A stretch of 7,764 nt of DNA, from the IMG/VR virus record IMGVR_UViG_2737471839_000007. The stretch is one strand, 5' to 3'. The stretch is from a virus. Taxonomy: Duplodnaviria > Heunggongvirae > Uroviricota > Caudoviricetes. Made by a program: the position numbers and the translations under genes. A model generated the notes under the pieces. The model did no database searches, was not told where the DNA came from, and was given only the letters and a program-made list of their open reading frames with translations. This document shows positions 1,243 to 7,591 of this stretch, piece by piece. The number at the start of each line of letters is the position of its first letter. The first letter of the stretch is position 1.

Positions 1243-1896
1243 TTAATTAACGGGGGTATCAGACATGCCGTCAGGTGTGTTATGCTTATGGGTTCCGATT
1301 TTAACGCCATTAACGGTGACGTCAACGGAGGTAATCACACCACCCACATGGCTGATGTTGCCTTCAAAGGTGGCGGCGTATTTCTTGCCCCCACTGATGG
1401 CCATGCCACCGTTGCCGGTGATTTTACCTTCCACCGTCAGCTTATCGCTGGCCGTCAGTAACGGTGTCGTGAATGCGGCACTTTCCTCTGCCTCAACCTC
1501 ATAGCGTTTGCATTTCACGCGATAAACATCACATTCATGCTCAATAACCCGCCCGCGCTTCAGTACGATTTTCGCGCCTTCGTCGGTATACAGCGCCACC
1601 TCGCCGGGTTTCAGTTCCGTCAGGCGATATGCGCCGTGCTCTGTGGCCACGACGACGGTATGGGAGGTATTGCCATTCAGCGGAACGGCAATACCCATTG
1701 AGCCGGGCGGCGGGGATGTGGTGAGGCCGTAATGCTGAAAATACTCCGCACCGTCCAGCTGTTCGCCTGCCAGCCCGTTCAGCTGGAGAAGCTGAACTTT
1801 GGTCGAACTGTCCACAGTACCGGTCACCACCCTGAATGCCTGGCGAACGGCGGCCAGTGCCTGCTGTACGCGCTGATTAACCTTGTCCCACATCAT
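1243..1896 (-). CDS. Baseplate assembly protein V / central spike (Mu gp45/Q-like)
   Basis: 217-aa ORF; size, position after the gpD-like hub and overall sequence character fit gpV-family spike proteins. Start ATG 1896-1894 overlaps the upstream TGA (ATGA). There are tandem Met codons (1896 and 1893); the second has better spacing from the GGGAG Shine-Dalgarno at 1899-1903, so the true start may be 1893. Confidence 0.65.
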   Translation of the reverse strand: MMWDKVNQRVQQALAAVRQAFRVVTGTVDSSTKVQLLQLNGLAGEQLDGAEYFQHYGLTTSPPPGSMGIAVPLNGNTSHTVVVATEHGAYRLTELKPGEVALYTDEGAKIVLKRGRVIEHECDVYRVKCKRYEVEAEESAAFTTPLLTASDKLTVEGKITGNGGMAISGGKKYAATFEGNISHVGGVITSVDVTVNGVKIGTHKHNTPDGMSDTPVN

Positions 1897-3104: not shown

Positions 3105-4437
3105 TAATCACCATCCCGGCGGTTATGTTGTTCGGGTCACGCAGCTGCGGGTTCAGACGTTGCAGCTCTGCCGCACGGCTGTAATCACCGTACCACTGCC
3201 ACGCCAGCAACAGCAGACAGCTGTCCGCCTGCACCTGTTTCTGCGTCAGCGGTGGGCGGCGTGACAGAACCAGCAGACCGACATCCTGCACGGATGCCGC
3301 CACGTTCTTCATGCTCTGAATGATTTCCGGGTACATCAGCCCCAGCGGTGATGCGGTTTCGGTTATCCGTTCGCGTTCGCCTTCATAGCGTTCACGGAAC
3401 AGCGTGATGGCTGTCTGTAAGCGGGTGCGCACATCTCCGACCAGTCGCCCGATATCCGCCGGTATAAGCTGCTCTGACTGGGCCTCATCTGACAGTATCG
3501 CCGTCGCCACGCTGGCCAGCTCTGAGGCCGCCAGAACCGCATAAGCCACTTTCACATCCTGCACGTCTTCCACGGACGCATCCGGCGGAAGTGCCACAGA
3601 CGGCGTTTTATCACCGCTGACCAGTGCGACCGGCAGCGCGACCAGCTCATCCATATCTGCCATCACCTCATTCCAGCAGGTCATCACGGTCGCAGAACTG
3701 GCGACGCTGTCTTCTCCGGTCAGTCCGGTCGTGGTGGCGGAATCAGTACGTTCCAGCACCGGCACCGCGTGCCCGACATCTGACGTGTGGATTTCCAGCA
3801 CCTCTGCCAGCCCGCCAATAAATTTCCCGGGTTCGCTGGCCAGCGACATCATATTGTCGATGGATGAGAGAAAATCGCTTTTGAACGTCAGCAGGGTATT
3901 TACCAGTGTGGCGCGCACTGTCTGGATTTTTTTTATCACGCTGTTAATGGTCTTTAAAGGGGCTGTAACAGCGTCAAATAATTCGCTTAACTGTGCCAGT
4001 AACTTATCCAGTTCTTCAAATAACTGCTGTGCAAACAACTCCGGTAACGGGGTGCTGAACAACGCGCTGCCGGTGCGGTTCTCCAGAAAGCTCATGTCGA
4101 TGGTGCAGCTGTCCGGGCTTTCTGCGTCATGGCGAATGCTGTAGCCGGTCACAATCACCGACGGAACGGAGCCGTAAACCGGGTGAATCAGCTCACCATC
4201 GCCGCCTTTATCCAGGGCGGCGATCAGCTTTTCGAGTTTATATTCGTAATACTCCCCCCACAGGAACGCCGTCATGCGGAACGGTCGCGCCTTGCGCCCG
4301 AGGTCGTGCAAATCCGCCCCGTCAACAAACGGGTATTCATAGACCGCATGGTCGCGGCTGATTTGTTCATCCGTGTTCAGTACATCAAACTGCACACCGC
4401 GAAAGGAGGCGTTTTGCAGGTTTTCAGCCCAGCCCAT
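3088..4437 (-). CDS. DNA circularization protein N-like (Mu gp43 N-like; DNA_circ_N family)
   Basis: 449-aa ORF with N-terminus MGWAENLQNASFRGVQFDVL. The W..L.nASFRGV.F start is the hallmark I recall for the Mu N / DNA circulation N-terminal domain. It lies immediately after the tape measure gene with an ATGA overlap at 4437. Confidence 0.7.
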   Translation of the reverse strand: MGWAENLQNASFRGVQFDVLNTDEQISRDHAVYEYPFVDGADLHDLGRKARPFRMTAFLWGEYYEYKLEKLIAALDKGGDGELIHPVYGSVPSVIVTGYSIRHDAESPDSCTIDMSFLENRTGSALFSTPLPELFAQQLFEELDKLLAQLSELFDAVTAPLKTINSVIKKIQTVRATLVNTLLTFKSDFLSSIDNMMSLASEPGKFIGGLAEVLEIHTSDVGHAVPVLERTDSATTTGLTGEDSVASSATVMTCWNEVMADMDELVALPVALVSGDKTPSVALPPDASVEDVQDVKVAYAVLAASELASVATAILSDEAQSEQLIPADIGRLVGDVRTRLQTAITLFRERYEGERERITETASPLGLMYPEIIQSMKNVAASVQDVGLLVLSRRPPLTQKQVQADSCLLLLAWQWYGDYSRAAELQRLNPQLRDPNNITAGMVINAYAK

Positions 4438-6674
4438 CAGTAAGTTCCTCCCGTGCCTCTGTTGCCGTCCTGAAGGTTGTATTTGTTCACTGCCTCCGCC
4501 ACGACCTGACCATCGAGCACCAGTTGTGTGGTGAAATTTATGGGGCTGGCAGGTGGTCCCCAGTGCGTGAGGTATTCCGGCTGGGTGATGCGTCCGGGTT
4601 GTTCTGATGCCGGTTCAGACGTTGTGTTTCCTGCGGCTTTGTTCACCTGCTCCGGTGATGGCAGAGCATCAGCTGCGGCTTTCAGCTCATTATCCCGTTT
4701 AAGCATTCCTTCACGGGTAAAGAACAAGGAGCCATCGTCTGCAAAAAACAAACCATGATTATCTGTAAAGTTCTTGATGGTATCGCCAACAACAGCCCCA
4801 TAAAGTTCTTCTGCGGCCTCATAGCCTGCGTAAATGGTTGCAATTTTTCCGGCTGCGCCCATTATTTTTCCCAGACGTCCCTGATTGCCGGAAGCGACTT
4901 CACTGATATCTTTAACTTTGGATGCAGTATCCCCAGTATCATCGGGTTTATCTGCTCCTCCGGACACTGGATTACCGGTAATAAGTTTCAGCCCCGCAAA
5001 CGTGACGGCCGCTGCTGTCATCGCTTTAATGGCTGTGGTAGCTGTCACCACTGCTGTGGTCAGCCCCGGAAATTTTTCACCCGCCCAGCTTATGGCATCG
5101 GCCACAGTCCCGGATGCATCAGCTAGTTTTTTCACGCCATCCATTTGTGAAAATTCAAGCGTGTTTTTAGCCTGCCCGGTTTTAAAATCATTCGTGTCTG
5201 ATATGAATTTAAAATCCACATCACCCGCGCGCTGACCTTCCGGCAGGGTGCGCTGCTGATTAATCGCGTCTTCAACCTTTTTCCGGTATTCCGGGTTGTT
5301 ACGATAAGCCAGCAACGCCTTTAACGCCTGTTGGTCTGCAACCAGCTTTCCGACACCAAAACCTTCAAGGAGTTTTACCATCGAATCATAAACAGCCGTC
5401 TGCTCGCCTTTGTCCCGGGCGGATGCCAGTTTCTTTTGCAACTCCTGATAGCGTTTATCGCTGGCAACGATTTTGTCTATCAGGCTGGACAGCGCGTCTA
5501 TCGGATCAAGCCCGTTCTTGCGCGCTTCTACCAGCGTGCCTGCAAAGTCGATGCCCTTACCGTTGTAATTTATTCCCGCAGCCGCTGTTTCAATATCCTT
5601 ACTGGTCAGTTTTGCCAGCAGGTTAAATACGTTATTTCCGGCTTCGCTGCTGTTACCAGCTGTAATCGCTGCGGCTTCATTCAGCGCCAGAATCTTGACG
5701 AAATCATCCTTGCCTTTCATCCCGGCATTGGCAGCAGCCCCCAGTTGTGACGATAAATATTGCGCCATATCGTTCAGTTCAAAGCTGCCTTCTTTCCCCG
5801 CTGCAATCGCCATATTCAGAACGGTGGAAATATCTTCATCCCTGAATCCAAACGTCTTTTTTCCTTTGACCATTACGTTGGCCAGGTCTGTTGCAGATGC
5901 ACCGGAAGCCGTGGCGTATTTCATCAGTTCAGGTAGCCACTTGTTGGCTGTTTCAAATGAAATGCCGTCTTTCAGCAGGGCATCCAGCGTTTCGGCTGCA
6001 TCCTCTTTCGTGCCACCACCATAGGTCACCGCGTTACGGATGCTGCTTTTCATCTGCTCAAGACCAGCCCTGCGCCCCTCCAGTCCGCCATCACTGAAGG
6101 CGGTATTGGCCATCATTGCCAGCTGGCGTTCGTAGCTCATCTGCTTTTTGACCGGCTGCGCCATAATGGCAGCACCTGCTGCAATACCACCGCCTATTGT
6201 CACGGCATTCCCGCCAAATGCAGCCGCACGGGCAAAACGCCCCCGTTCAGGGATAACAGGCGTTTTCGCCATCTTCATCTGAGCCTGAGTAACGCCATCC
6301 AGTTCACGCTTGAGTGCCCGGGCTTTTTCCCGGGTGGCCTGCATGGCGCGCTCCTGCTCCTGCGCAGATTCAAAACCGGCGCGGGCCAGACGGTTATAAC
6401 TGGCAACCGTCAGATAAATTTCACGCCGGATCTCGCGTTCTGCACGAATACCGAGCGTTTCCCGGGCACGGGCGGCACGCTGTATCTCTTTTGCGGCCTT
6501 TTTCGTGCTGTTAATGCTTTCCTGCCCGGTACGCTTCTGCTCTGCGCCTGCCTTCCGGGTTGCCTTTGTTACACCTTCGGTGGCTTTGATAACCTGTTTT
6601 TGTCCCTTTTCCAGAACCTGCGAGGCTTCGTCCTTCGCAGTCAGGGTCATGCCAACTTTGAAATTACCGGCCAT
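4437..6674 (-). CDS. Tail tape measure protein
   Basis: 745 aa, the largest ORF in the operon. It is Ala/Gly/Lys/Glu-rich with long predicted helical stretches and hydrophobic Gly/Ala-rich segments (e.g. AAAFGGNAVTIGGGIAAGAAIMAQPV). It sits directly after the chaperone frameshift extension and before the baseplate genes. An AAGG Shine-Dalgarno lies about 11 nt upstream of ATG 6674. Confidence 0.75.
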   Translation of the reverse strand: MAGNFKVGMTLTAKDEASQVLEKGQKQVIKATEGVTKATRKAGAEQKRTGQESINSTKKAAKEIQRAARARETLGIRAEREIRREIYLTVASYNRLARAGFESAQEQERAMQATREKARALKRELDGVTQAQMKMAKTPVIPERGRFARAAAFGGNAVTIGGGIAAGAAIMAQPVKKQMSYERQLAMMANTAFSDGGLEGRRAGLEQMKSSIRNAVTYGGGTKEDAAETLDALLKDGISFETANKWLPELMKYATASGASATDLANVMVKGKKTFGFRDEDISTVLNMAIAAGKEGSFELNDMAQYLSSQLGAAANAGMKGKDDFVKILALNEAAAITAGNSSEAGNNVFNLLAKLTSKDIETAAAGINYNGKGIDFAGTLVEARKNGLDPIDALSSLIDKIVASDKRYQELQKKLASARDKGEQTAVYDSMVKLLEGFGVGKLVADQQALKALLAYRNNPEYRKKVEDAINQQRTLPEGQRAGDVDFKFISDTNDFKTGQAKNTLEFSQMDGVKKLADASGTVADAISWAGEKFPGLTTAVVTATTAIKAMTAAAVTFAGLKLITGNPVSGGADKPDDTGDTASKVKDISEVASGNQGRLGKIMGAAGKIATIYAGYEAAEELYGAVVGDTIKNFTDNHGLFFADDGSLFFTREGMLKRDNELKAAADALPSPEQVNKAAGNTTSEPASEQPGRITQPEYLTHWGPPASPINFTTQLVLDGQVVAEAVNKYNLQDGNRGTGGTY

Positions 6675-6942
6675 TTTTCTGCTTACCTTTTCTGCGTTTC
6701 TTTCTGAGGGATTTAAATGACTGGCGGGTGGTCTGTGAGGTGTCCTTTCTTCCTGAGCCGCCGCCGTTCAGCCTGTCAACGGCGGCAAGCCAGCCGTCCA
6801 GCTCGGGACGGCTCATGGTCATGATTTGCTCTTCGGTTATTCCGTAGCGCCCGAGGATAAGGACTGCGAGCCGGAGTCCGGCGAGCCGGGATTCCCGCCG
6901 TTCCGCTTTACCTTCAGGACGTTGCGTGATGCCAGCAGAATA
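6664..6942 (-). CDS. Minus-one frame extension of the tail assembly chaperone (putative frameshift product, GT/E+E'-like)
   Basis: By hand translation the -1 frame relative to the chaperone is open from 6942 (after an in-frame TAA at 6945-6943) down to a TAA at 6666-6664. It therefore overlaps the last 103 nt of the chaperone ORF and ends 8 nt inside the tape measure ORF. Translation: ...GITEEQIMTMSRPELDGWLAAVDRLNGGGSGRKDTSQTTRQSFKSLRKKRRKGKQKNGR. The other alternative frame terminates at 6778-6776. The exact slip site is not identified. Confidence 0.4.
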   Translation of the reverse strand, partial: YSAGITQRPEGKAERRESRLAGLRLAVLILGRYGITEEQIMTMSRPELDGWLAAVDRLNGGGSGRKDTSQTTRQSFKSLRKKRRKGKQKNGR

Positions 6943-7220
6943 TTAAAATCGTCCGGCGTCATGTTGTCGTGCAACAGCTCCGCCGTCAGTTCTTCCTGCG
7001 GAATATCCCCCAGACGGACCAGCGTTGCCGCCATCACCGCACAGCGGTAGTAATAATCCGCCGCGAAGCCATCCACCGTCTGAAAGCGTTCTTCGGTTTC
7101 TTCCAGTGCCTGCCCGTTATCACGCATGACTGGCAGACGCAGCTCAAAGTTTTTATGAACGGTGCCGTTAAACACCACGCCATCAGACAGTTCGCCGGTC
7201 TGTGTATTAATCAAAGTCAT
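6837..7220 (-). CDS. Tail assembly chaperone (Mu gp41 / lambda G / P2 E analogue), zero-frame product
   Basis: 127-aa ORF between the tube and tape measure genes, with an acidic, low-complexity Gly/Ser-rich C-terminus (NGGNPGSPDSGSQSLSSGATE). Start ATG 7220-7218 overlaps the tube TGA (ATGA); an AGGAAGG Shine-Dalgarno lies 7 nt upstream. Confidence 0.55.
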   Translation of the reverse strand: MTLINTQTGELSDGVVFNGTVHKNFELRLPVMRDNGQALEETEERFQTVDGFAADYYYRCAVMAATLVRLGDIPQEELTAELLHDNMTPDDFNILLASRNVLKVKRNGGNPGSPDSGSQSLSSGATE

Positions 7221-7591
7221 CCTGTCACCTTCCTGAGTGCAGCCATTTTGATATCAATTTTCGCTTCACTGTCGACGGTGTATTTCTCACCCACTTCGGT
7301 TGTGAAGCAGTCCAGATAGGAGGTGCGCTTGCCGCTGTTGCTGAGCGGATAAATTGAGATTTTCACACCTTCCAGATTTTCCCAGTCCGGCTCGTTGGTA
7401 TCAGGGATCACCGCCGAAACTGAAATATCGTAAGTGGCAATGCCACGGGCAAAGCCTTTGGCCCTGCCGGTTTTGTTCATGGTCTTGACCAGCTTTCGCC
7501 CGGTGTTGATCTGAACATCGAAGTCGGTGATCTCGATTTCCTGGCTGTCCACCTCCAGCACAATCGAGCCGACATATTCTTTAATGGACAT
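7217..7591 (-). CDS. Tail tube protein (Mu gpM-like)
   Basis: 124-aa ORF immediately after the putative sheath gene and before the chaperone; size and position fit a myovirus tail tube. A strong AAGGAG Shine-Dalgarno lies 8 nt upstream of ATG 7591. Confidence 0.55.
   Translation of the reverse strand: MSIKEYVGSIVLEVDSQEIEITDFDVQINTGRKLVKTMNKTGRAKGFARGIATYDISVSAVIPDTNEPDWENLEGVKISIYPLSNSGKRTSYLDCFTTEVGEKYTVDSEAKIDIKMAALRKVTG
7228..7234 (-). promoter_or_regulatory. Shine-Dalgarno (AGGAAGG) for the tail assembly chaperone gene
   Basis: Minus-strand AGGAAGG, 7 nt upstream of ATG 7220, lying inside the 3' end of the tube gene. Confidence 0.5.

What the first reader, a model, noticed from the sequence alone, without database searches (positions are those of the whole stretch)
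6664..6942. Probable programmed -1 translational frameshift in the tail assembly chaperone, with no canonical slippery heptamer
The -1 frame of the chaperone gene is open for 93 codons, from 6942 down to a stop at 6666-6664. It overlaps the last 103 nt of the chaperone ORF and ends just inside the tape measure ORF. That is the geometry of the conserved chaperone frameshift of tailed phages (lambda G/GT, P2 E/E+E'). I could not find a textbook X_XXY_YYZ heptamer in the zero frame between 6840 and 6942. The recoding site may therefore be non-canonical, or the extension may be made another way, for example from the internal ATGs at 6822-6820 or 6816-6814.
Basis: partly seen in the sequence, partly recalled or inferred. 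Interest (0 to 1): 0.5.

Follow-up and report, generated by a model that had tools for sequence, protein, structure and literature searches.

The report
Tail chaperone -1 frameshift at A_AAG
An E. coli prophage with a Mu-like tail almost certainly makes a longer version of its tail assembly chaperone by a programmed -1 ribosomal slip at a degenerate site (G_GUA_AAG); this is a well-known phage trick, used here at a non-textbook slip sequence that genome annotation has missed.

Summary
On the minus strand, the -1 frame of the chaperone gene (7220-6837) is open for 92 sense codons (6942-6667, stop 6666-6664), and the overlap contains no X_XXY_YYZ heptamer.

- **Homologous site:** relatives carry textbook heptamers at the same position: A_AAA_AAG in a Klebsiella phage clade and a Ralstonia phage clade, and lambda's G_GGA_AAG in one 60%-identical contig.
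- **Conservation:** in 14 non-redundant enterobacterial relatives A_AAG is invariant, while the middle base of the preceding codon takes all four values.
- **Upstream bound:** in two relatives the -1 stop directly abuts the heptamer.
- **Selection:** purifying selection switches from frame 0 to frame -1 exactly at the site (pN/pS 0.42 vs 1.60 upstream; 1.1-1.5 vs 0.26-0.49 downstream). This includes 27 codons that have no start codon.
- **Internal ATGs:** they have no Shine-Dalgarno sequence.
- **Structure:** the modelled chaperone fold ends at residue 106.

The predicted fusion is 185 aa. A conserved 3' hairpin is plausible but unproven. No experiment exists. This is a new member of a known kind, unannotated in RefSeq.

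The parts
7217..7591 (-). Tail tube gene (124 aa), immediately upstream of the chaperone. Its stop overlaps the chaperone start (ATGA).
   Evidence: phrog_185 tail tube protein, E 3.4e-35; ORF list.
6837..7220 (-). Tail assembly chaperone, zero-frame product (G-like, 127 aa). The folded domain is residues 1-106; residues 107-127 form a disordered Ser/Pro/Gly-rich tail.
   Evidence: phrog_508 tail assembly chaperone, E 4.5e-40. AlphaFold2 model pLDDT 84.2, last helix 89-106, residues after about 110 below pLDDT 50. Top PDB fold hit is 2OB9, the HK97 tail assembly chaperone, which is a weak match (E 0.068, prob 0.92).
6943..6945 (-). TAA that closes the -1 frame upstream. This is the 5' limit of the possible shift window in this sequence.
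   Evidence: In relatives this stop moves to 1-4 codons before the AAA of the site.
6906..6912 (-). Proposed shift site G_GUA_AAG (zero-frame codons GUA 6911-6909 and AAG 6908-6906). tRNA-Lys slips from AAG to AAA (6909-6907), and the next codon read is GCG (6906-6904).
   Evidence: It is the only productive Z_ZZN motif in the overlap. A_AAG plus CG is invariant in 14 non-redundant relatives. It is homologous to A_AAA_AAG in L025, L026, L094, L095 and L098, and to G_GGA_AAG in L048. The selected frame flips here.
6664..6906 (-). -1-frame extension (T-like part): 80 codons, AERRESRLAGLRLAVLILGRYGITEEQIMTMSRPELDGWLAAV...KKRRKGKQKNGR, plus the stop at 6666-6664. Fused to residues 1-105 it gives a predicted 185-aa product.
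   Evidence: pN/pS in frame -1 is 0.26-0.49 against 1.1-1.5 in frame 0. The C-terminal 52 codons match phrog_3114 (E 9e-19), and phrog_2768 matches weakly (E 0.0012) across residues upstream of the ATG.
6872..6905 (-). Candidate 3' stimulatory hairpin. The inner stem CGGCGGG (6900-6894) pairs with CUCGCCG (6885-6879) around an 8-nt loop, starting 5 nt after AAG. The outer stem is CGGA (6905-6902) with UCCG (6875-6872).
   Evidence: It is in the MFE fold and recurs in most relatives, with 92.9% of cells paired. However, z = -0.27 against shuffles and there are no compensatory changes. The 24 nt after the site are about 4.6-fold more conserved than the gene body, which dual coding could also explain. 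Status: inferred, unproven.
6837..6839 (-). Zero-frame TAA stop of the chaperone, 162 nt before the tape measure start.
6814..6822 (-). Two in-frame Met codons of the -1 frame (6822-6820 and 6816-6814). RefSeq starts a separate 52-aa 'hypothetical protein' at the first one. Only the second Met is conserved in relatives.
   Evidence: RefSeq WP_000178828.1; alignment; anti-SD duplex -2.1 kcal/mol for both.
4437..6674 (-). Tape measure protein gene (745 aa). Its ATG (6674-6672) lies 8 nt upstream of the -1-frame stop codon (ATGGCCGGTAA), an arrangement conserved in nearly all relatives.
   Evidence: PF10145, E 9.7e-20; phrog_794, E 2e-223.

Best explanation
This is the G/GT-type programmed -1 ribosomal frameshift of a tail assembly chaperone, in an E. 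coli prophage with a Mu-like contractile tail.

Most ribosomes read the chaperone gene to its stop at 6839-6837 and make the 127-aa protein. A minority slip back one base at G_GUA_AAG (6912-6906). The Lys-tRNA reading AAG re-pairs with the overlapping AAA, and decoding continues with GCG in the -1 frame for 80 more codons, to the stop at 6666-6664. The result is a 185-aa fusion: residues 1-105, which are the folded, tape-measure-binding chaperone domain, followed by a T-like extension.

By analogy with lambda gpG/gpGT, the fusion would be the rare species that links the chaperone-coated tape measure to the tube protein. The site is a degenerate form of the canonical heptamers found at the same position in relatives. 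The P-site tRNA (Val, or Ala or Glu in relatives) cannot re-pair properly, so the event is effectively a single-tRNA (tetranucleotide or 'hexanucleotide' NNA_AAG) slip. It is probably helped by the GC-rich hairpin that starts 5 nt downstream.

Shown here: the geometry, the homology of the site, the switch of the selected frame, and the absence of a start codon or SD. Inferred: that the slip occurs, its efficiency, the role of the hairpin, and the function of the extension.
For: 1. **Context.** The order is tube, chaperone (phrog_508, E 4.5e-40), tape measure, then Mu N/P/gp45/gp46 homologues.
2. **Open frame.** The -1 frame is open in all 21 IMG/VR relatives, in 9 metagenome contigs, and in genomic relatives down to 53% identity.
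3. **Upstream bound.** In L054 the -1 frame reads TAA GGC AAA GCG, and in L025 it reads TAA AAA AAA GCG, so the shift cannot occur 5' of the heptamer.
4. **Homologous canonical sites.** A_AAA_AAG CGG occurs in Klebsiella phage ST405-OXA48phi1.1 and its relatives at 89% and 71% identity, and in Ralstonia phage YO374_1 and a relative. G_GGA_AAG occurs in L048. Homologous -1 peptides follow in each case.
5. **Conservation of the motif.** A_AAG and the next two bases (CG) are invariant in 14 non-redundant relatives, while the middle base of the P-site codon is U, C, A or G.
6. **Selection.** For the 24 codons upstream, pN/pS is 0.42 in frame 0 and 1.60 in frame -1. Downstream, frame -1 gives 0.26 (codons 1-8), 0.49 (9-21), 0.41 (9-27) and 0.33 (29-48), while frame 0 gives 1.13-1.50. 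Substitutions in the overlap fall 14/7/20 on -1-frame codon positions 1/2/3.
7. **No independent start.** There is no ATG, GTG or TTG in the first 27 -1 codons in any relative, and the internal ATGs have no SD. There is no internal promoter.
8. **Domain boundary.** The modelled fold ends at helix 89-106 and the zero-frame tail is disordered. Distant tblastn hits align only to residue 106.
9. **Literature.** A_AAG is by far the most shift-prone tetramer in E. coli, reaching 5.6% with a strong 3' pseudoknot (PMC4066793). NNA_AAG 'hexanucleotide' sites are used by IS1222 (G_CGA_AAG) and IS3 (PMC5009743). Lambda G/GT works at a roughly 30:1 ratio (PMC5009743).
Against: - There is no experimental evidence for the fusion protein here or in any relative.
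- No database protein spans both halves.
- Without a stimulator, tetramers including A_AAG are barely above background in E. coli, about 0.15% against 0.11% (PMC4066793). The candidate hairpin folds no better than shuffled sequence (z -0.27) and shows no covariation.
- After a -1 shift the P-site tRNA-Val would face a mismatch at the middle position on GGU.
- The pN/pS values are pooled over non-independent pairs from 13 sequences.
- In the first 8 codons after the site both frames are conserved. Selection alone therefore places the shift only within about 6912-6882. A_AAG is singled out because it is the only slip-capable motif there and because of its homology to canonical sites.
- Many 132-aa relatives have the chaperone stop overlapping a -1-frame ATG (A TAA TG), which could allow some coupled re-initiation (sequences).
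Confidence: 0.8

Rival explanations
1. The downstream ORF is made only as an independent small protein of 50-52 aa. It would start at ATG 6822 or 6816, either by weak direct initiation or by re-initiation of ribosomes that have just terminated at the chaperone stop 15-21 nt upstream. There would be no frameshift.
For: RefSeq and gene callers annotate it this way (WP_000178828.1). PHROG phrog_3114 is built from such ORFs. The Met at 6816 is invariant in relatives. In many 132-aa relatives the chaperone stop overlaps a -1-frame ATG as TAATG, a classic coupling arrangement (sequences).
Against: It cannot explain purifying selection on the 27 -1-frame codons upstream of the first Met (pN/pS 0.26-0.49, with frame 0 at 1.1-1.5). 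Those codons contain no start codon in any relative. It cannot explain the invariant A_AAG, or the canonical heptamers at the same spot in distant relatives. It also cannot explain the -1 stops that abut the heptamer but never fall inside the overlap. The anti-SD duplex is -2.1 kcal/mol, below the background mean. The first Met (6822) is absent in L048, L054, L056, L025 and L026. A T-only peptide made in addition to the fusion is not excluded.
Confidence: 0.07
2. A fusion is made, but not by a -1 slip of tRNA-Lys on A_AAG. The alternatives are a shift elsewhere in the conserved GC-rich block (6905-6882), a +2 event, or transcriptional slippage by RNA polymerase.
For: In the first 8 codons after A_AAG both frames are conserved, so selection does not resolve the exact position. 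Phage Mu itself uses a verified -2 shift at CGG GGG CGA (annotation). L096 has its T-like peptide in the +1/-2 frame, so this family is mechanistically plastic. L025 has a run of 8 A that could support polymerase slippage in that phage.
Against: No other Z_ZZN or heptamer motif exists in the zero frame between 6908 and 6851, and the longest homopolymer in the overlap is 3 nt, too short for transcriptional slippage. A_AAG is invariant while neighbouring bases vary. The homologous position carries canonical -1 heptamers in other clades.
Confidence: 0.08
3. The open -1 frame is a chance or relic feature: a decayed gene or an indel-split chaperone with no current function.
For: A 111-codon open -1 run occurs by chance inside the gp45-like gene of the same window. 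The expected number of runs of 92 or more codons among 139 runs is about 0.3.
Against: The two-frame arrangement is kept in 55 E. coli genomes and in relatives down to 38% identity in Klebsiella and Ralstonia phages, with coding-type selection on the -1 frame. Its stop always sits at the tape measure start.
Confidence: 0.02

Closest known systems
Phage lambda gpG/gpGT tail assembly chaperone frameshift (Levin et al. 1993; Xu et al. 2004, 2013, 2014, as summarised in PMC5009743)
   Same: A chaperone gene lies between the major tail (tube) gene and the tape measure gene. [quoted passage not shown] The extension has no start of its own and ends at the tape measure gene. The slip codon is AAG, read by tRNA-Lys. 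The window's heptamer differs from lambda's G_GGA_AAG at one base, and relative L048 has exactly G_GGA_AAG.
   Different: The P-site codon is GUA, not GGA, so tandem re-pairing is not possible. This is a myovirus (Mu-like) tail, not a siphovirus tail. No sequence similarity to gpG or gpT was detected, and the fold similarity to the HK97 chaperone is weak. There are no experimental data.
Tetranucleotide or 'hexanucleotide' NNA_AAG -1 frameshift sites of E. coli and IS elements: IS3 (CCA_AAG with pseudoknot), IS1222 (G_CGA_AAG), B. subtilis cdd (A_CGA_AAG). See Sharma et al. 2014 (PMC4066793) and Atkins et al. 2016 (PMC5009743), which cite Licznar et al. 2003.
   Same: There is an A_AAG slip without a re-pairing P-site codon. 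The low expected efficiency suits a minor product. The 5' codon varies, and according to the review this modulates efficiency. A GC-rich structure is predicted a few nucleotides 3' of the site.
   Different: Those cases are transposase or cellular genes, and this one is a phage structural gene. The stimulator here is unverified. GUA_AAG and GCA_AAG efficiencies could not be looked up because the primary paper is not held.
Phage Mu gp41/Mu_56 tail assembly chaperone frameshift (verified -2; Xu et al. 2004, as annotated in AF083977)
   Same: The tail module architecture and gene order are the same (sheath, tube, chaperone, tape measure, N, P, gp45, gp46), and so is the two-product logic.
   Different: Mu shifts -2 at CGG GGG CGA, whereas the window's extension is in the -1 frame at A_AAG. 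The window's chaperone gave no tblastn hit to Mu in the phage collection.
E. coli dnaX A_AAA_AAG frameshift
   Same: The same slip codon and tRNA-Lys are used. The distant relatives L025 and L026 carry exactly A_AAA_AAG.
   Different: dnaX has a full heptamer, an upstream SD-like enhancer and a strong hairpin, and shifts at about 50% (background knowledge). Here there is no SD-like element 10-14 nt upstream (sequence read directly), the heptamer is degenerate, and the expected efficiency is low.

Membership tests
Conserved tailed-phage tail assembly chaperone frameshift (lambda G/GT type, Xu et al. 2004) | Two overlapping ORFs located between the major tail or tube gene and the tape measure gene | tested here: met
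   Tube 7591-7217, chaperone 7220-6837, -1 ORF to 6664, tape measure 6674-4437.
Conserved tailed-phage tail assembly chaperone frameshift (lambda G/GT type, Xu et al. 2004) | The upstream ORF is a tail assembly chaperone | tested here: met
   phrog_508 'tail assembly chaperone', E 4.5e-40. The structural support is weak: 2OB9 HK97 chaperone is the top PDB hit (E 0.068), and several BFVD chaperones match at E 2e-3 to 1e-1. There is no Pfam hit.
Conserved tailed-phage tail assembly chaperone frameshift (lambda G/GT type, Xu et al. 2004) | The downstream frame lacks its own initiation signals and is under coding selection from within the overlap | tested here: met
   There is no start codon in the first 27 -1 codons and no SD at the internal ATGs. 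pN/pS flips at the site.
Conserved tailed-phage tail assembly chaperone frameshift (lambda G/GT type, Xu et al. 2004) | The arrangement and a slip site are conserved in homologues | tested here: met
Conserved tailed-phage tail assembly chaperone frameshift (lambda G/GT type, Xu et al. 2004) | Both products are made, with the fusion as the minor species, and both are needed for tail assembly | not testable with these tools
   This needs a western blot, mass spectrometry, a reporter assay and genetics.
Canonical tandem-slippage heptamer X_XXY_YYZ | The P-site and A-site tRNAs can both re-pair in the -1 frame | tested here: not met
   G_GUA_AAG: the A site (AAG to AAA) can re-pair, but the P site (GUA to GGU) mismatches at the middle base. 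The feature is met in relatives L025, L026, L094, L095 and L098 (A_AAA_AAG) and in L048 (G_GGA_AAG).
Z_ZZN tetramer or NNA_AAG hexanucleotide -1 frameshift sites | A Z_ZZN motif in the zero frame that allows cognate re-pairing of one tRNA | tested here: met
   A_AAG at 6909-6906 is the only productive tetramer in the overlap and is invariant in relatives.
Z_ZZN tetramer or NNA_AAG hexanucleotide -1 frameshift sites | A flanking stimulator (3' hairpin or pseudoknot, or 5' SD-like element), which tetramers need for appreciable shifting | tested here: inconclusive
   A 7+4 bp GC-rich hairpin lies 5 nt 3' of AAG and is kept in most relatives. However, z is -0.27 and no pair shows a compensatory change. 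No Rfam family matches.
Phage Mu gp41 -2 frameshift | Extension in the -2/+1 frame, with a shift at CGG GGG CGA | tested here: not met
   The extension is in the -1 frame. The +1 frame across the chaperone stop is open for only 43 codons in the identical locus L003 and was not examined further. The Mu site is absent.

The most novel reading that the evidence does not exclude
In this enterobacterial clade the chaperone frameshift has moved from tandem two-tRNA slippage to pure single-tRNA (Lys) slippage on A_AAG. The P-site codon is free to drift (GUA, GCA, GAA, GGA), and the loss of P-site re-pairing is compensated by an ultra-conserved, dual-coding GC-rich 3' hairpin. The clade would then be a natural allelic series showing how the identity of the P-site codon tunes the G:GT ratio in a phage structural gene.
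Probability: 0.35. Interest if true: 0.45.

Novelty: new member of a known kind. Interest (0 to 1): 0.3.

Why it matters
**Annotation.** The 185-aa fusion is missing from RefSeq. There the 3' part is called a separate 52-aa hypothetical protein, in at least 55 complete E. coli genomes. No protein in a 5.8-billion-sequence collection spans the junction. Heptamer-based frameshift finders will miss it.

**Biology.** The family offers a natural series of slip sites at one homologous position: A_AAA_AAG, G_GGA_AAG, G_GAA_AAG, G_GUA_AAG, G_GCA_AAG and A_GCA_AAG, plus a -2/+1 relative. This could be used to test how much P-site re-pairing matters for low-level programmed frameshifting in E. coli, and how the chaperone-to-fusion ratio is set. 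It does not change the general picture of tail assembly chaperone recoding.

Tried and rejected
- **Megablast against phage genomes:** no match. The element is known only as an unnamed prophage.
- **Genome-contig scan with the alignment:** the patterns were too degenerate and it returned only one locus.
- **Metagenome and viral scans with the conserved 22-mer:** only close relatives, all with G_GUA_AAG. This added no diversity.
- **tblastn of the T-like peptide against phages:** one hit, the same Klebsiella phage.
- **Rare-codon pause at CGG after AAG:** weakened, because relatives have CGC (L048, L054) or CGA (L052) there.
- **Hairpin as a proven stimulator:** rejected as proven. z is -0.27 and no pair covaries. 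A loop-to-downstream CCGG pseudoknot was considered, but the 3' CCGG is not conserved in the relatives (sequences).
- **Upstream SD-like enhancer:** there is none at 10-14 nt. The AAGG just 5' of the site is too close and simply encodes the conserved Leu-Lys (sequence read directly).
- **Internal promoter or terminator:** none on the coding strand. Rfam found nothing.
- **T_TTT at 6947:** rejected as a shift site, because the next -1 codon is the TAA at 6945-6943.
- **G_GGC at 6851:** rejected, because it lies 3' of -1 sequence that is already under selection.
- **Odd-length database proteins P0033, P0041 and P0042:** these are indel-ridden assemblies, not natural fusions.
- **Primary papers Licznar 2003 and Mejlhede 2004:** not held. 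The ranking of GUA_AAG and GCA_AAG among NNA_AAG motifs therefore could not be checked. My recollection that tRNAs with cmo5U34 (Val GUA, Ala GCA) are favourable 5' codons is unverified.
Full report
**1. What the window is.**
All long ORFs are on the minus strand. The order is:
- tail tube (7591-7217; phrog_185, E 3.4e-35)
- a 127-aa protein (7220-6837; phrog_508 'tail assembly chaperone', E 4.5e-40)
- a tape measure protein (6674-4437; PF10145 and phrog_794)
- homologues of Mu N (DNA_circ_N), Mu P/gp44, gp45 and gp46

The segment is 100% identical to a prophage in E. coli OkiPb017xx strains. At 90% identity or more it is present in 56 of 5,426 complete E. coli genomes. No deposited phage genome matches at the DNA level.

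RefSeq annotates the chaperone as 'hypothetical'. It calls the 3' part of the -1 frame a separate 52-aa hypothetical protein (WP_000178828.1) and annotates no ribosomal slippage.

**2. The observation.**
There is a TAA at 6945-6943, then 92 sense codons, then a TAA at 6666-6664.
- The frame is -1 relative to the chaperone. It overlaps the chaperone's last 103 coding nucleotides and ends 11 nt inside the tape measure ORF.
- There is no X_XXY_YYZ heptamer in the zero frame of the overlap, and no homopolymer longer than 3 nt.
- An open run of this length has P of about 0.0024 per run, given this window's -1-frame stop frequency. One unrelated 111-codon run exists in the gp45-like gene. Openness alone is therefore only suggestive.

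**3. Conservation of the arrangement.**
- The -1 frame is open across the chaperone stop in all 21 IMG/VR relatives, in 9 metagenome contigs, and in relatives at 53-75% protein identity from E. coli, E. albertii, Yersinia, Enterobacter, Trabulsiella and Intestinirhabdus.
- Its 5' limit tightens in relatives. The -1 stop lies 1-4 codons before the AAA of the proposed site in L004, L019, L021, L022, L053 and L054. In L054 the -1 frame reads TAA GGC AAA GCG.
- The zero-frame motif LK[VAE]KR.GGNPGSPD is nearly invariant, with K105 and R106 invariant.

**4. Where the shift is.**
- The only productive slip-capable motif is A_AAG at 6909-6906, inside G_GUA_AAG. T_TTT at 6947 leads straight into the -1 TAA. 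G_GGC at 6851 lies 3' of -1 sequence that is already under selection.
- In an alignment of 14 non-redundant relatives, AAAGCG is invariant, while the middle base of the preceding codon takes all four values:
  - GUA in WIN, L016, L018, L022 and L052
  - GCA in L021, L024, L046, L050, L053, L054 and L056
  - GAA in L051
  - GGA in L048
- L048 therefore carries lambda's canonical G_GGA_AAG.
- Two distant clades align with the chaperone only as far as residue 106, at 38-40% identity. They carry A_AAA_AAG CGG at the homologous position. These are Klebsiella phage ST405-OXA48phi1.1 with its relatives at 89% and 71% identity, and Ralstonia phage YO374_1 with one relative.
- In the Klebsiella phage the -1 stop abuts the heptamer (TAA AAA AAA GCG). 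Its downstream -1 peptide (LSGLRRATLILGRFGISGDRIEGMTVSELTSWL...KKGKR) is recognisably homologous to the window's (LAGLRLAVLILGRYGITEEQIMTMSRPELDGWL...KGKQKNGR). tblastn gives 48% identity over 48 residues.
- The window's site is therefore a degenerate descendant or sibling of canonical heptamers. It keeps the A-site slip and has lost P-site re-pairing.

**5. Which frame is translated.**
Minimum substitution counts per codon position follow the coding pattern pos3 > pos1 > pos2:

| Region | Frame counted | pos1 / pos2 / pos3 |
|---|---|---|
| Chaperone body | 0 | 115 / 88 / 219 |
| Extension after the zero-frame stop | -1 | 52 / 38 / 82 |
| Overlap | -1 | 14 / 7 / 20 |

In the overlap, this means the most variable position is the second base of the zero-frame codons.

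Nei-Gojobori estimates pooled over 13 relatives show the same switch:

| Region | pN/pS frame 0 | pN/pS frame -1 |
|---|---|---|
| 24 codons 5' of the site | 0.42 | 1.60 |
| Extension codons 1-8 | 1.13 | 0.26 |
| Extension codons 9-21 | 1.50 | 0.49 |
| Extension codons 9-27 | 1.45 | 0.41 |
| Extension codons 29-48 | 1.11 | 0.33 |

- The selected frame switches at the site. The 27 codons before the first Met are as constrained as those after it.
- These pooled values are not independent, so I use them as effect sizes rather than P-values.
- In the first 8 codons both frames are conserved. Selection therefore bounds the shift to about 6912-6882, and the motif and the homology arguments pin it to A_AAG.

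**6. Independent initiation.**
- No ATG, GTG or TTG occurs in the -1 frame in the first 27 codons after the site in any relative.
- The two ATGs (6822, 6816) have best anti-SD duplexes of -2.1 kcal/mol. The values are -7.3 to -10.3 for five of the window's gene starts, -3.9 for the tape measure start and -4.8 for the gp46-like start. The background mean is -3.2.
- The first Met is not conserved, but the second is.
- There is no promoter-like site.
- In many 132-aa relatives the chaperone stop overlaps a -1-frame ATG (TAATG). Some coupled re-initiation giving a T-only peptide cannot be excluded, but it cannot account for the selection upstream.

**7. Protein structure.**
- An AlphaFold2 model built on 17 homologues has pLDDT 84.2 and pTM 0.73. 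It shows a beta-hairpin plus helices, ending with helix 89-106. Residues after about 110 fall below pLDDT 50.
- The shift after K105 therefore replaces a disordered, fast-evolving Ser/Pro-rich tail with the T-like extension, exactly at the domain boundary.
- Foldseek's top PDB hit is the HK97 tail assembly chaperone 2OB9, a weak match (E 0.068, prob 0.92, TM 0.40/0.47). BFVD returns several tail or tape measure chaperones at E 2e-3 to 1e-1. This is supportive but not strong.

**8. Stimulators.**
- The 24 nt after the site show about 0.29 changes per nt, against 1.34 in the gene body.
- They can form a hairpin starting 5 nt after AAG. The inner stem is CGGCGGG/CUCGCCG with an 8-nt loop, and the outer stem is CGGA/UCCG. 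The same fold is predicted in most relatives.
- The fold energy is no better than that of shuffles (z -0.27 for 76 nt and -0.12 for 46 nt).
- On the alignment, 92.9% of cells pair, but with zero compensatory changes, and every change that occurs breaks a pair. Dual coding can explain the conservation equally well.
- No Rfam family matches.
- The codon after AAG is CGG in most relatives but CGC or CGA in three, so a rare-codon pause is not a conserved feature.

**9. Comparison with what is known.**
- The chaperone frameshift is conserved among tailed phages, and lambda makes gpG and gpGT at about 30:1 (PMC5009743, citing Levin 1993 and Xu 2004, 2013, 2014).
- Phage Mu, whose tail module this prophage resembles, uses a verified -2 shift at CGG GGG CGA (annotation of AF083977 citing PMID 15469818). 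The mechanism here is different, and the chaperones are not detectably similar.
- Sharma et al. 2014 (PMC4066793) measured all 16 tetramers in E. coli. A_AAG is far the best at 5.6% with the IS3 pseudoknot, but tetramers are barely above background without a stimulator.
- Atkins et al. 2016 (PMC5009743) describe NNA_AAG 'hexanucleotide' sites: IS1222 G_CGA_AAG, B. subtilis cdd A_CGA_AAG, and IS3 with C_CA before A_AAG. They note that the 5' codon modulates efficiency through the wobble behaviour of its tRNA.
- PRFect (PMC10885494) reports that many annotated chaperone frameshifts lack the canonical motif.
- The present case thus combines two known things: the G/GT chaperone frameshift and an A_AAG single-tRNA slip site. 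A search with the hypothetical 185-aa fusion found no protein that covers both halves, with a maximum of 63% coverage. The product is therefore unannotated.

**10. Verdict.**
- The best explanation is a programmed -1 frameshift at G_GUA_AAG (6912-6906) that yields a 185-aa G-T-type fusion. My confidence is 0.8.
- What remains inferred is that the slip really occurs, at what frequency, and whether the hairpin stimulates it.
- Novelty: a new member of a known kind. Interest is modest. The finding corrects annotation and offers a natural series of P-site variants, but it does not change the general understanding of tail assembly chaperone recoding.

Noticed in passing
L096 (IMGVR_UViG_3300048576_000612), about 1180-1420: A 30%-identity relative of the Klebsiella-phage chaperone has its T-like peptide (LLALLKLGFSYTEALAMPWSEAFAYLDAV...) in the +1/-2 frame rather than the -1 frame, as in phage Mu. 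The direction of the shift is therefore not conserved across this chaperone superfamily.
   Followed up: partly
window 6664-6674 (minus strand): The tape measure ATG (6674) lies 8 nt upstream of the -1-frame stop (ATGGCCGGTAA), and 12 of 14 relatives with a detectable start keep this exact overlap. The zero-frame chaperone stop is 141-165 nt upstream, and the tape measure SD is weak (-3.9 kcal/mol). Tape measure translation might be partly coupled to ribosomes finishing the -1 frame. This was not tested.
   Followed up: partly
L021, L022, L024, L046, L050, L053 (end of the chaperone ORF): In the 132-aa chaperone variants the zero-frame stop overlaps a -1-frame ATG as TAATG, a coupling-type arrangement. 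This is probably why gene callers annotate a separate small ORF. The window itself has a 15-nt gap instead (sequences).
   Followed up: partly
window 1544-1876 (minus strand, inside the gp45-like gene): There is a 111-codon stop-free run in the -1 frame, rich in Arg, Gly and Ala. It looks like a compositional accident of a GC-rich gene and served here as a chance control.
   Followed up: no
window 6840-6905 (zero-frame tail of the chaperone): After GGNPGSPD, the zero-frame C-terminal tail keeps only its Ser/Pro/Asp-rich composition and varies in length (126-133 aa). It is predicted to be disordered. The GGNPGSPD block itself is nearly invariant in both frames, so it may have a role of its own in the short product, or as RNA.
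   Followed up: partly
P0033, P0041, P0042 (NCBI assemblies): Several deposited E. coli assemblies carry this region with multiple indels that scramble the frames, probably from long-read homopolymer errors. The result is spurious 'fusion-like' proteins.
   Followed up: yes
L025 (Klebsiella phage ST405-OXA48phi1.1), about 1795-1815: Its slip site lies within a run of eight A (CTT AAA AAA AAG). In that phage transcriptional slippage could contribute alongside ribosomal frameshifting.
   Followed up: no
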